IMG/VR virus record: IMGVR_UViG_3300047469_000312
Location: 96,001-160,000 of that record
Origin: a virus
Length of the DNA: 64,000 bases
Direction: 5' to 3' (one strand)
Shown here one piece after another: positions 38,310-60,418 of this stretch (its first letter is position 1; every line of letters starts with the position of its first letter). The notes below the pieces were generated by a model, which did not search any database, was not told the DNA's origin, and saw only the letters and a program-made list of their open reading frames with translations. The position numbers and the translations under genes are program-made.

Positions 38310-38834
38310 ATGGCACTCTCTGACGAACTCGCTCAACTTCAAACCGCAGTTGCCAGCACCGGCACCGCGATCCACAATAAAGACAGTGCTGAAGCCACGA
38401 CGCGCCAGAATGCGGATATTGCGCTCGGCGCGCAGGTCGGCAGTCAACGGGGTCTGGTATCGATCAAAACGGGCGCCAGCACCCTGCCAGCCGATCCTTG
38501 GGGGTATGTCTACCAGACCGACGCGGCGAACACCACGGGTGCGCTGAGCACTGCTTTGCCTGCTGCAGCACCTGCCAACGCGGGTAAGCGCTTGGTCTTT
38601 GAAAATACCTCGGGGTTTAACTGGACGCTCACGGCGTCCAACATTTTGTCCTCGCAAAGCAACGGCGCGGCTTCACTGGTGCTCGCCCCTGGTACGACGG
38701 CTGAACTCTATCACGACGGTGCCAGCTACCTGGTCGAAGGCGGCACCTATGTAAGTGGCGGCAACGGTAAGACGACAGTGTCCGCTGCGGCTCCCTCGGG
38801 TGGTGCGAATGGCGATACTTGGTATCAGGTGTAA
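38310..38834 (+). CDS. tail-fibre-like virion protein
   Basis: G/A/T/S-rich; TALPAAA..NAGKRLVFEN; VSAAAPSGGANGDTWYQV tail-fibre motif. Confidence 0.7.
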   Translation: MALSDELAQLQTAVASTGTAIHNKDSAEATTRQNADIALGAQVGSQRGLVSIKTGASTLPADPWGYVYQTDAANTTGALSTALPAAAPANAGKRLVFENTSGFNWTLTASNILSSQSNGAASLVLAPGTTAELYHDGASYLVEGGTYVSGGNGKTTVSAAAPSGGANGDTWYQV

Positions 38835-38836
38835 AC

Positions 38837-39550
38837 ATGCCGATCTACAAGAACATTAGCGGAACGTGGACTGTCACCAAACACCTCTGGCGCAACATCA
38901 ACGGCACCTGGACCAAGGTGCGGCGCGCCTTTCGCAATGTGAACGGCACCTGGACGCAGTACCACGGCGATAACGACTTTACGGCGTATTCGTTGGGCTT
39001 GCTCCAGAACCGTATTGCGGCGGCCAATGGGGGACTGTGGATGAATGGGGCCCAGAAGTTGGGTCCGACTCGCTCTTACAGTCTTGTCACCTTTGACAAG
39101 TACGGCAACATCGCCTTTAGTCGCTCGTACGATATTTTCGGCGAAGCCTCGGACGGCTCACCTACCGCGACCCCGTATGGTTCGGCACAGTTTTCAGCCG
39201 ACGTGGGCGCGCTCGCGACGGGTACGAACTTCGTGCTCGTCACCTACGACGAACCCGCGAGTGGTGTCGCCCCCGTTGAGCCAGGGGTGACTAATCCCCC
39301 GATCGCAGCGGTTGATAACGCACTGGTGGCGCTCGGAGCCTCGAGCTCGATGTTAAACAGTATTCAGTATCGAGGCGCGTACTTGCTGCTCGGTAGCAAG
39401 GGGGGCACCAAGGCGGCTGAGCTCTACGCCGGGACGTATCAAACCGGCATTGGTAGCGGTGGCACGGACGCGGGTTGTTTGGATGGCGCCGTGGGTGTCA
39501 CGTTCAATGTGGTCAACGGAGTCATCAGTAACGTGGTAAGGACACTTTAA
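38837..39550 (+). CDS. virion-type protein with N-terminal NxxGTW repeats and ILEI/PANDER (GG-type lectin) domain
   Basis: 3x (K/R)N(I/V)(S/N)GTW; RSY.LV.FD..G.....RSYD.F, VLVTYDEP, L..LGA, YRGAY.LLG.KG. Confidence 0.65.
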   Translation: MPIYKNISGTWTVTKHLWRNINGTWTKVRRAFRNVNGTWTQYHGDNDFTAYSLGLLQNRIAAANGGLWMNGAQKLGPTRSYSLVTFDKYGNIAFSRSYDIFGEASDGSPTATPYGSAQFSADVGALATGTNFVLVTYDEPASGVAPVEPGVTNPPIAAVDNALVALGASSSMLNSIQYRGAYLLLGSKGGTKAAELYAGTYQTGIGSGGTDAGCLDGAVGVTFNVVNGVISNVVRTL

Positions 39551-59011: not shown

Positions 59012-59453
59012 GCCCGATGAGCAACTGACGCCTTACGAGCGGCAGCTGAAGTACGGCGAGAACGGTGACCCGCAGCAACTGAACCCGTATATCGACCAAG
59101 CGCTCGCGTTGATGGAAGAGTGCGACAAGTGGAATGTCGACAAAGTCTTCCAGAAGGCATGGCGCGTCGGTAAGGGTTATGTCAATTCGCGCAGTCTTTG
59201 GGACCTGGTGAAGGCACGCATCATTGCGCAGCTCAAAGAGCAGGCTCGTAAATCGATCCAGTCTTACCTCAGCGATCATGACGCGTTGCTGGGTTTCATG
59301 ACTGAAGATGCTCGCTGGCACCATACGCGGGCTAACCTGGTGACGGTGTTGTTTGAGGTCACGGGCGGCGGTGTCGCGCTGGACGAGCTGGCTCAGGTGG
59401 CTGACGAAGCGATCGCCGACTGTATCAAAGCTAACCAAGGGGGGAGAGCGTGA
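58986..59453 (+). CDS. hypothetical protein
   Basis: SD GAGGAGG. Confidence 0.7.
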   Translation: MYPKDLMTRPDEQLTPYERQLKYGENGDPQQLNPYIDQALALMEECDKWNVDKVFQKAWRVGKGYVNSRSLWDLVKARIIAQLKEQARKSIQSYLSDHDALLGFMTEDARWHHTRANLVTVLFEVTGGGVALDELAQVADEAIADCIKANQGGRA

Positions 59454-59881
59454 GCCGGAGTTCCGCGATTCGCAGACGTCGTAAAATCATGCGTGGCATT
59501 GGGGTCAAGCGCCTCACCTATCGGCAACAGATGGAACACATTGCCGTGAGGACGGTGAAACGCATTATCGCCACCGTTGGCTGGGATCACGTGAAGTTCA
59601 TGCAAGACACGTCGTTCTCCTTGGAAGCGGCTATCACCCCGGAACGAGAAGCTCTCGTCGAGCAAATTTTGCTCGAGCAGGGGTATCTTAAGACACGCAC
59701 CGGAGAGTTCGTCCACAAGAAGATGCGCTTGTCGGACTTCGCTTCAATAGGTGCGATAAGTATTGTGCCTACCGTTATCAGCGAACCTGATCGAATGCCA
59801 GGGGCTTTTGGCTGGCCGGAAATCACTCCGGAAGAAATCAAGGCCGTCGAAGAACGGCTCGCGGCGCCACACGGTATCTGA
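59450..59881 (+). CDS. hypothetical protein
   Basis: GTGA overlap, SD GGGGAG. Confidence 0.65.
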   Translation: MSRSSAIRRRRKIMRGIGVKRLTYRQQMEHIAVRTVKRIIATVGWDHVKFMQDTSFSLEAAITPEREALVEQILLEQGYLKTRTGEFVHKKMRLSDFASIGAISIVPTVISEPDRMPGAFGWPEITPEEIKAVEERLAAPHGI

Positions 59882-59892
59882 GCTGTATTAGT

Positions 59893-60058
59893 GCTAGTCA
59901 CCTGAGTGCTGGGCGCGGCGCTCACGGGGAGTGGTCCATCGTGCCGGTTTTCAGGTTTGGCCGGATTATCAAGTCGGTGGGAAAAGGCCCGTTGGTAGGG
60001 GTGAGGGGCGTGGAAACCTCTCTGCCTGAATCCAACCCCCAGCACTCAGGTGATTGGT
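59893..60058 (+). ncRNA. multi-branched structured RNA closed by 21-bp stem
   Basis: GCTAGTCACCTGAGTGCTGGG / CCCAGCACTCAGGTGATTGGT; 16 contiguous WC pairs plus G-U pairs favouring + strand. Confidence 0.6.
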
Positions 60059-60088
60059 GAGCCATATGCGCATAGCCGGGGATTCACA

Positions 60089-60418
60089 ATGTCTGATTTA
60101 GTTCGGAGTTCAGTAAGGGAGACAGTCGAACTGCTCTATGGCCTGATTGCCAATCCTGAATCGATCGATAAGTTTGCTGCTTTCTTTAGCAAAATCAACG
60201 AGCGAGCGTTCGTGATGTCGGTGTCAGAGGGTAGGTACAACAATAAAGAACTCGGAACTGTGGTGACCATTACGGTCCACGACAGCAAAGGCACGTTTGA
60301 ACTGCTGCAGGGTTTTCTACCCTTGGCAGAAGAGATGTTTGAAAGAACAGGTAAGCGCTACTTCACGGACTTCTTCGAGCCAGAGTTTGGTTCGATTCTG
60401 CTGATTGATAGCGAATAG
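60089..60418 (+). CDS. hypothetical protein
   Basis: SD GGGGA before ATG 60089. Confidence 0.65.
   Translation: MSDLVRSSVRETVELLYGLIANPESIDKFAAFFSKINERAFVMSVSEGRYNNKELGTVVTITVHDSKGTFELLQGFLPLAEEMFERTGKRYFTDFFEPEFGSILLIDSE

What the first reader, a model, noticed from the sequence alone, without database searches (positions are those of the whole stretch)
59893..60058. ~165-nt multi-branched RNA closed by a 21-bp stem, with retron msr-msd-like layout but no RT nearby
Seen: the terminal inverted repeats pair over 21 bp (16 contiguous Watson-Crick; the G-U pairs only work on +). Inside are two abutting hairpins (CACG-GGA-gtgg-TCC-CGTG; CCGGTT..GGCCGG), a short linker, and a longer imperfect hairpin (GTTGG..AGG..GAGG/CCTC..CCT..CCAAC) next to the 3' repeat. 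Known: retron ncRNAs have a1/a2 repeats enclosing short msr stem-loops and a long msd hairpin, and long closing stems also mark RNase III-excised RNAs. The 5' part also loosely recalls a tRNA D-arm/anticodon arm (GAGTGGTCCATC, TTCAGGT) but has no T-loop. Inference: an undescribed processed ncRNA, possibly a decoy for host retron/RT or tRNA-targeting defences. It lies upstream of an Ntn protease and an orphan HigA-like gene.
Basis: partly seen in the sequence, partly recalled or inferred. Interest (0 to 1): 0.75.

Follow-up and report, generated by a model that had tools for sequence, protein, structure and literature searches.

The report
New folded RNA of jumbo phages
The gap between two small genes of this giant phage encodes a real, tightly folded non-coding RNA of about 166 bases that related phages keep in shape by matching mutations; it fits no catalogued RNA family, is not a retron, and its job is unknown.

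Summary
The observation mostly holds. Window 59893-60058 (+) folds with a 21-bp closing stem, and it is the strongest inverted repeat in the window. I collected 13 distinct homologues: Burkholderia phage FLC9 and uncultured ~250-325 kb relatives. There is one copy per genome, always on the strand of the flanking genes, and it fills almost the whole intergenic gap. A four-way-junction model (P1, P2, P3, P4) pairs 98.1% of cells. 24 pairs changed on both sides, and there are 93 G.U against 4 A.C cells, so the + strand RNA is under selection. The RNA core stays 82-94% identical where the neighbouring protein is about 41-43% identical. No Rfam family, tRNA or conserved ORF matches. No reverse transcriptase occurs in the complete relatives, so the retron reading fails. 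A MITE is excluded: single copy, no target-site duplication, absent from 185,579 bacterial species genomes. The RNA sits on different sides of a neighbouring gene in different clades, and one phage keeps it without the Ntn-like gene. Most likely it is cut from a polycistronic transcript at P1 (host RNase III, inferred) and acts as a discrete RNA. This scan found the same family earlier on another genome (e1-5643309).

The parts
59893..59913 (+). P1, 5' arm of the 21-bp closing stem
   Evidence: Pairs with 60038-60058. 98.9% of cells are paired across 13 homologues and 15 of 21 pairs changed on both sides. In G003 the stem is 26 bp with an entirely different sequence.
59914..59918 (+). J1/2 junction strand (CGCGG), invariant
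   Evidence: Invariant in all 13 sequences.
59919..59933 (+). P2 hairpin: 5-bp stem (27-31/37-41) with loop RCGGG
Evidence: 100% paired. Pair 28-40 occurs as AU, GU and GC; pair 30-38 as UA and CG.
59936..59980 (+). P3 arm: proximal helix 44-49/83-88, pair 50-73, G51 bulge, distal hairpin 52-57/67-72 with a 9-nt loop, and a 9-nt 3' bulge (74-82)
   Evidence: The proximal helix is 100% paired, with G-C to A-U and C-G to U-A changes in L145. Pair 50-73 switches UA to AU in two separate lineages. The distal stem is invariant.
59981..59990 (+). J3/4 junction strand (NAAAAGRCCC), nearly invariant and A-rich
   Evidence: Conserved and unpaired in the supported model. The alternative GGG/CCC hairpin is broken in L145.
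59991..60036 (+). P4 arm: GUUGG/CCAAC base, two conserved internal loops, variable apical helix and loop
   Evidence: The basal 5 bp are invariant. The apical helix pairs 112-129 and 113-128 switch AU to GC in about half of the sequences. Loop length varies by up to 7 nt.
60038..60058 (+). P1, 3' arm of the closing stem
   Evidence: See the 5' arm.
59450..59881 (+). Upstream gene 'A' (143 aa, no Pfam hit); its stop codon lies 11 nt before P1
   Evidence: ORF list, Pfam. Its FLC9-clade homologues lie downstream of the RNA instead.
60089..60418 (+). Downstream gene 'B' (109 aa, no Pfam hit); its start codon lies 30 nt after P1
   Evidence: ORF. It is 55-92% identical across clades and absent from G003.

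Best explanation
This is a single-copy gene for a compactly folded non-coding RNA of about 166 nt, specific to a clade of FLC9-like jumbo phages. Shown: four helices (P1-P4) meet at a four-way junction; the helices covary, while the junction strands and internal loops are almost invariant; the + strand is the one under selection; and the RNA evolves much more slowly than the genes around it. Inferred: it has no promoter or terminator of its own and is transcribed inside the rightward polycistronic message. The 20-26 bp P1 duplex, about two helical turns with its length conserved while its sequence is free, is cut by a double-strand-specific RNase, most likely host RNase III. That cut would release a nuclease-resistant RNA of roughly 125-165 nt and separate the two flanking cistrons. 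The invariant core would then act in trans as a specific binding surface for a protein or other partner, not as a leader of one particular gene. My probabilities: real structured ncRNA 0.93; excision at P1 about 0.5; trans-acting partner-binding role about 0.4.
For: The structure is significant (z -4.0) and unique in the window. I found 13 distinct homologues in about 8 lineages. In the four-way-junction model 98.1% of 688 cells are paired, 24 pairs changed on both sides, 0 of 500 shuffles reach this, and slid controls give at most 50% paired. RNAalifold finds the same P2 and P3 independently. There are 93 G.U against 4 A.C cells, and the RNA is co-oriented with the flanking genes in every locus. 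There is one copy per genome. The core is 82-94% identical where protein dn2 is 41-43% identical; blastn aligns only the element between the window and FLC9, not the flanks. The gaps to neighbouring ORFs are 1-11 nt upstream and 12-31 nt downstream, and no sigma-70-like promoter or + strand terminator is present. The RNA lies after gene A in the window clade and L145 but before gene A in the FLC9 clade. G003 has it in another context without dn1 or dn2, which argues against a gene-specific cis leader.
Against: There are no expression or end-mapping data, so excision and RNase III involvement are inference only. None of the phages encodes an RNase III of its own. No partner has been identified. 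The family is phylogenetically shallow (one phage clade), so some 'invariant' bases may only reflect limited divergence. The alignment used for counting was fitted to a covariance model containing P1, distal P3 and P4, which favours those helices; P2 and proximal P3 were not in that model. A purely cis role in mRNA processing or stability is not excluded.
Confidence: 0.5

Rival explanations
1. It is a purely cis-acting intercistronic element: a large RNase III processing site or mRNA stabiliser that separates and protects the flanking cistrons, like the RNase III sites of T7 early mRNA. No function resides in the excised piece.
For: It is embedded between ORFs with no transcription signals of its own. 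It has a long P1 duplex. The upstream stop codon and the downstream ribosome-binding site lie directly next to P1.
Against: A processing site needs only the duplex. Here the interior junction strands, the internal loops and three further helices are conserved more strongly than the stem, whose sequence is free. The flanking genes differ between clades.
Confidence: 0.2
2. It is a ligand-binding or catalytic RNA: a new aptamer (for example a sponge or sensor for a metabolite or signalling nucleotide) or a new self-cleaving ribozyme used for transcript processing.
For: It shows the usual signature of such RNAs: covarying helices around nearly invariant junction nucleotides, with an A-rich junction strand. 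Small ribozymes are often found between phage genes (general knowledge).
Against: It matches no known riboswitch or ribozyme model even at E<=10. A 21-26 bp P1 is too stable to act as a switching helix. There is a single copy and a single context class. There are no biochemical data.
Confidence: 0.1
3. One reading: a retron msr-msd-like RNA, or a decoy for host retron/RT or tRNA-targeting defences.
For: Terminal inverted repeats enclose internal hairpins.
Against: No RVT_1 domain is found in the window's genome, in two near-complete or complete relatives, in G003 or in FLC9. No tRNA-like call is made, and the proposed D-arm hairpin is rejected by covariation. Nothing links it to any defence system.
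Confidence: 0.03
4. It is a miniature inverted-repeat transposable element (DNA-level mobile element), or another DNA-level palindrome such as an origin or packaging signal.
For: It has 21-bp terminal inverted repeats and is about 166 bp long. Its position relative to gene A differs between clades.
Against: There is one copy per genome. No target-site duplication is seen in the flanks. A core pattern finds nothing in 185,579 bacterial species genomes; the 106 loci hit by the stem arms alone are unrelated repeats. The 'TIRs' change by compensatory and G.U-preserving substitutions on one strand only.
Confidence: 0.02

Closest known systems
Orphan stable small RNAs of lytic phages, e.g. T4 RNAC and RNAD
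   Same: They are phage-encoded, discrete structured RNAs of 100-200 nt with no assigned role. [quoted passage not shown]
   Different: There is no sequence or structure relation. This RNA is not in a tRNA cluster (no tRNA in the window). It belongs to FLC9-like jumbo phages of Burkholderia-type hosts.
RNase III processing stems (T7 early-mRNA intercistronic sites; 16S/23S rRNA precursor stems)
   Same: A long duplex is formed by sequences that flank the RNA inside a longer transcript. The duplex sequence is free while its length of about two helical turns is kept. The comparison itself rests on established knowledge of RNase III substrates.
   Different: T7 sites are single hairpins with no conserved interior. 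rRNA stems enclose kilobase RNAs. Cleavage here is untested.
Retron msr-msd non-coding RNA
   Same: Inverted repeats (a1/a2-like) close a multi-hairpin RNA.
   Different: There is no reverse transcriptase anywhere in the complete genomes, there is no effector, and there is no evidence of msDNA. The interior is a four-way junction, not msr hairpins followed by one long msd hairpin.
Bacterial and phage Y RNAs (YrlA) and tRNA-like cloverleaf RNAs
   Same: The 5' and 3' ends form a long stem and the other helices radiate from a four-way junction, a cloverleaf topology.
   Different: There is no Ro60/TROVE protein in these phages, no T-loop or D-loop signature, no ARAGORN call and no Rfam hit. The stem sequence is not conserved, which a sequence-specific Ro-binding site would need.
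Large-scale catalogues of candidate structured RNAs in viruses (PMC10690425)
   Same: It is the same kind of object: a covariation-supported intergenic RNA motif in IMG/VR phage contigs.
   Different: I could not check whether this motif is in that catalogue, because no supplementary files are held. It is not in Rfam 15.

Membership tests
Retron ncRNA (msr-msd) | A cognate reverse transcriptase gene next to the ncRNA | tested here: not met
   PF00078 gave no match at E<=1 in G000, G001 (98% complete), G002 (100%, terminal repeats), G003 or FLC9, while the control genomes responded.
Retron ncRNA (msr-msd) | a1/a2 inverted repeats flanking msr hairpins and one long msd hairpin | tested here: inconclusive
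   Flanking inverted repeats exist, but the covariation-supported interior is a four-way junction, not the msr/msd layout.
Retron ncRNA (msr-msd) | Production of branched msDNA from a conserved G | not testable with these tools
   This needs nucleic-acid analysis of infected cells.
MITE | Multiple dispersed copies in the genome | tested here: not met
   The covariance model finds exactly one locus in each of five genomes. The stem motif occurs once in the window.
MITE | Target-site duplication flanking the terminal inverted repeats | tested here: not met
   The flanks ...GTATTAGT and GAGCCATA... share no direct repeat. The flanks also differ between homologues.
Any Rfam 15 family (including ribozymes, riboswitches, 6S, Y RNA, tmRNA, SRP RNA) | Covariance-model score at or above the family's gathering threshold | tested here: not met
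   No hit reaches gathering in the window. The best permissive hits are 9-19 bits against thresholds of 35-100 for three divergent copies.
tRNA / tmRNA | Cloverleaf with D- and T-loop signatures that ARAGORN recognises | tested here: not met
   ARAGORN genes in the window. A tRNA-Sec hit of 15 bits (E 1.3) on L117 is noise.
Y RNA (YrlA) | Co-occurring Ro60/Rsr (TROVE) protein and a conserved Ro-binding stem | tested here: not met
   PF05731 is absent from all five genomes. The stem sequence is completely different in G003.
RNase III substrate | About 20 bp or more of nearly uninterrupted double-stranded RNA | tested here: met
   P1 is 20-26 bp in all 13 homologues, with 98.9% of cells paired.
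RNase III substrate | Staggered cleavage in vivo or in vitro | not testable with these tools
   This needs end mapping in wild-type and rnc hosts, or an in-vitro assay.
Protein-coding small ORF | A reading frame kept open across homologues | tested here: not met
   No frame is stop-free in all lineages. Indels of 1-7 nt occur in the loops.

The most novel reading that the evidence does not exclude
The RNA is a new functional class, not a passive processing product. Either would add a new kind of RNA-based activity to jumbo-phage biology.
Probability: 0.12. Interest if true: 0.9.

Novelty: new variant of a known kind. Interest (0 to 1): 0.55.

Why it matters
Jumbo phages carry many genes of unknown function, but very few of their non-coding RNAs have been described. 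This RNA has covariation support of publication quality. Its core evolves far more slowly than the neighbouring proteins. It also has a cultured representative (Burkholderia phage FLC9 on B. glumae), so its expression, processing and partners can be tested directly. A conserved four-way-junction RNA with invariant junction strands suggests a specific molecular partner, and identifying that partner could reveal a new RNA-based step in jumbo-phage infection.

Tried and rejected
1. Rfam at gathering and at E<=10, on the window copy and on two divergent copies, gave only noise.
2. ARAGORN found nothing.
3. A scan of 185,579 bacterial species genomes with the P1 arms returned 106 loci. All are unrelated repeat families (REP-like palindromes, heptamer arrays, a MITE-like family in one MAG); none shares the interior. 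A core-specific pattern found nothing.
4. L005 from the viral scan is a chance match.
5. Reverse transcriptase, RNase III and Ro60/TROVE domains are absent from all five phage genomes.
6. So were my first interior model (a CGGC/GUCG helix plus the 49-74 pair) and a GGG/CCC hairpin in J3/4. The RNAalifold-derived four-way junction has no unpaired cells in P2 or proximal P3.
7. Relatives fetched through other proteins added little. window:14684-16105 and window:43407-46721 are not conserved outside the close clade. The 243-aa protein at 38819-39547 recovered only the three IMG/VR records already known. The G003 upstream ORF had no indexed homologues.
8. No RNA was found in the fetched regions of three further lineages (L141, L138/L139, L146) even with filters off. 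In L138 genes A and B abut without it.
9. No sigma-70-like promoter or + strand intrinsic terminator flanks the RNA.
10. The supplement of the viral structured-RNA catalogue could not be searched.

Full report
**The observation.** Window 59893-60058 on the + strand folds with a 21-bp closing stem: 16 contiguous Watson-Crick pairs plus outer pairs that include three G.U. MFE is -82.2 kcal/mol, z = -4.0 against dinucleotide shuffles. The reverse strand also folds, because the stem is a palindrome at DNA level, but it loses the wobble pairs. Among inverted repeats within 400 nt this is by far the longest in the 64-kb window. The stem motif occurs nowhere else in the window.

**Not a known family.** Rfam 15 has no match at gathering thresholds in the whole window. 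Permissive scans at E<=10 of the window copy and of two divergent homologues gave only noise, 9-19 bits against thresholds of 35-100. ARAGORN finds no tRNA or tmRNA. No reading frame stays open across homologues, and indels of 1-7 nt fall in loops.

**Where it occurs.**
- The window is part of a 172-kb IMG/VR virus record estimated 54% complete.
- blastn against 50,697 phage records hits only Burkholderia phage FLC9 (321.8 kb). The match is 84.6% identical over exactly the element, in an unannotated gap between gp200 and gp199, and the flanks do not align.
- Pattern scans, and look-ups through the neighbouring proteins, gave further copies: three IMG/VR jumbo-phage records of 254-315 kb and several JGI, ENA and Logan contigs.
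- In total there are 13 distinct sequences in about eight lineages (alignment A6, model R1).
- Each of five whole or large genomes holds exactly one copy.
- A core-specific pattern is absent from 185,579 bacterial and archaeal species genomes.
- The 106 bacterial loci that match only the two stem arms are unrelated repeat families.

**Structure.** P1 is maintained in every homologue at 20-26 bp. In G003 it is 26 bp with a completely different sequence. FLC9, L140, L142, L144 and L145 each carry separate compensatory changes. P4 has an invariant 5-bp base (GUUGG/CCAAC), conserved internal loops, and an apical helix in which two pairs switch between A-U and G-C in about half of the sequences.

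A column-pair survey and an independent RNAalifold run point to two other features:
- a 5-bp hairpin, positions 27-31 with 37-41, where pair 28-40 occurs as AU, GU and GC and pair 30-38 as UA and CG;
- a 6-bp helix CCAUCG/CGGUGG, positions 44-49 with 83-88, with G-C to A-U and C-G to U-A changes in L145. It encloses pair 50-73, which switches UA to AU in two separate lineages, and the invariant CCGG hairpin.

The result is a four-way junction of P1, P2, P3 and P4. On A6 this model pairs 98.1% of 688 cells, and 24 of 53 pairs changed on both sides. None of 500 column shuffles reaches the observed values, and sliding the partners by 1-3 columns drops pairing to 30-49%.

One caveat applies. A6 was aligned to a model that already contained P1, distal P3 and P4, which favours those helices. 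P2 and proximal P3 were not in that model, and they are the helices with 100% pairing.

There are 93 G.U cells against 4 A.C cells. The RNA lies on the strand of the flanking genes in every locus. Selection therefore acts on the + strand transcript.

**Constraint.** The RNA core (without P1) is 82-94% identical to the window copy in lineages where the neighbouring protein dn2 is only 41-43% identical and protein A 30-43%. The junction strands CGCGG and NAAAAGRCCC and the P4 internal loops are nearly invariant.

**Context.** The RNA fills the intergenic gap, leaving 1-11 nt to the upstream stop codon and 12-31 nt to the next start. In G003 the putative upstream ORF even ends inside P1. No sigma-70-like promoter or + strand terminator is nearby.

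The gene order differs between clades:
- A-RNA-B-C in the window clade and in L145;
- RNA-A-B-C in the FLC9 clade (FLC9, L142, L140, L144);
- A-B-C with no RNA between A and B in L138.

G003 is 253.7 kb with terminal repeats. It has the RNA among unrelated genes and lacks detectable B and C. The RNA is thus an independent module, not the leader of a particular gene and not tied to the Ntn-like gene C. Genes A, B, C and the supposed HigA-like gene have no Pfam hit at E<=0.01.

- Retron: no RVT_1 domain at E<=1 in G000, G001 (98% complete), G002 (complete), G003 or FLC9, with positive controls responding.
- MITE: single copy, no target-site duplication, RNA-type covariation of the 'TIRs'.
- tRNA-like: rejected by ARAGORN and by covariation.
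- Y RNA: no TROVE protein, and the stem sequence is not conserved.
- Phage-encoded RNase III: none. Any cleavage of P1 would have to be done by the host enzyme.

**How it most likely works.** The gene has no transcription signals of its own, so it is probably co-transcribed with its neighbours. The only feature that delimits it is P1. P1 keeps a length of about two helical turns while its sequence drifts, which is what a sequence-tolerant double-strand-specific RNase would need. From established knowledge of RNase III substrates (T7 early mRNA, rRNA precursors), I infer excision at P1. That would yield a stable RNA with its ends protected in a helix.

A bare processing site would not need three further covarying helices and invariant junction strands. 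I therefore favour a trans-acting role in which the junction core binds a specific partner. My probabilities are given under the best explanation. The rivals are a purely cis processing or stability element (0.2), a ligand-binding or catalytic RNA (0.1), a retron or decoy (0.03) and a mobile or DNA-level element (0.02).

**Novelty.** Full-text searches found nothing describing an ncRNA in FLC9-like phages. T4 RNAC and RNAD are the nearest precedent for orphan phage RNAs. A 2023 catalogue of more than 10,000 candidate viral RNA motifs (PMC10690425) might include this one, but I could not check it. This scan noted the same family earlier on another genome (e1-5643309: about 165 nt, four-way junction, 15 phages, no known job). 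My independent analysis agrees and adds the two gene orders and the loss of linkage in G003.

Noticed in passing
L113:3523-3687 (-), L144:2960-3127, L145:3226-3387 (P4 apical part): In three separate lineages the P4 tip reads GGAGG-CUUAGAUCA-CCUCC (with small variants in L144 and L145). The loop plus 3' strand (AGAUCACCUCCU in L113) resembles the 3' end of 16S rRNA as I recall it. That would make it a Shine-Dalgarno:anti-Shine-Dalgarno-like hairpin. The window copy has GAGGGG/CCUCUC instead.
   Followed up: no
L007, L009, L010, L016, L021, L023, L025, L026 and others (MAG CAMCWV01): A ~155-nt MITE-like element with ends CTCTTTGGAGTGCTGGGAC...GTCCCAGCACTCCAAAGAG and two internal CTCGACATGTCGAG hairpins. 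It occurs in more than 25 copies in one MAG labelled Waddlia. It is unrelated to the phage RNA.
   Followed up: no
L022, L032, L036, L042, L050, L063, L070, L071 (Planctomycetota and Verrucomicrobiota MAGs): Units of about 145 nt bracketed by the palindrome AGCCCAGCACTTGAGTGCTGGGCT and containing paired GTCCC...GGGAC hairpins. They recur across phyla and look like a REP- or MITE-like family.
   Followed up: no
window 60089-60418 and its homologues (FLC9 gp198, L142:7614-7976, L138:236-583): The small protein B (109-120 aa, no Pfam hit) is unusually conserved, at 55-92% identity, across clades in which its neighbours A and C are only 24-54% and 36-57% identical.
   Followed up: partly
L138:1-240 and L139:1-80: In the P0016 lineage genes A and B are separated by only ~75 nt, with no RNA. 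Whether the RNA lies upstream of A there (FLC9 order) or was lost cannot be told, because the contigs end.
   Followed up: partly
L117:7615-8085 (G003): The putative ORF upstream of the RNA ends inside the 5' arm of the 26-bp P1. If the ORF is real, terminating ribosomes would have to melt part of the stem, which hints at an interplay between translation and folding or processing.
   Followed up: no
window 59587-60045 (-) and 59922-60065 (-): Antisense ORFs of 152 and 47 aa overlap the RNA. They are not conserved in the homologues and are spurious.
   Followed up: yes
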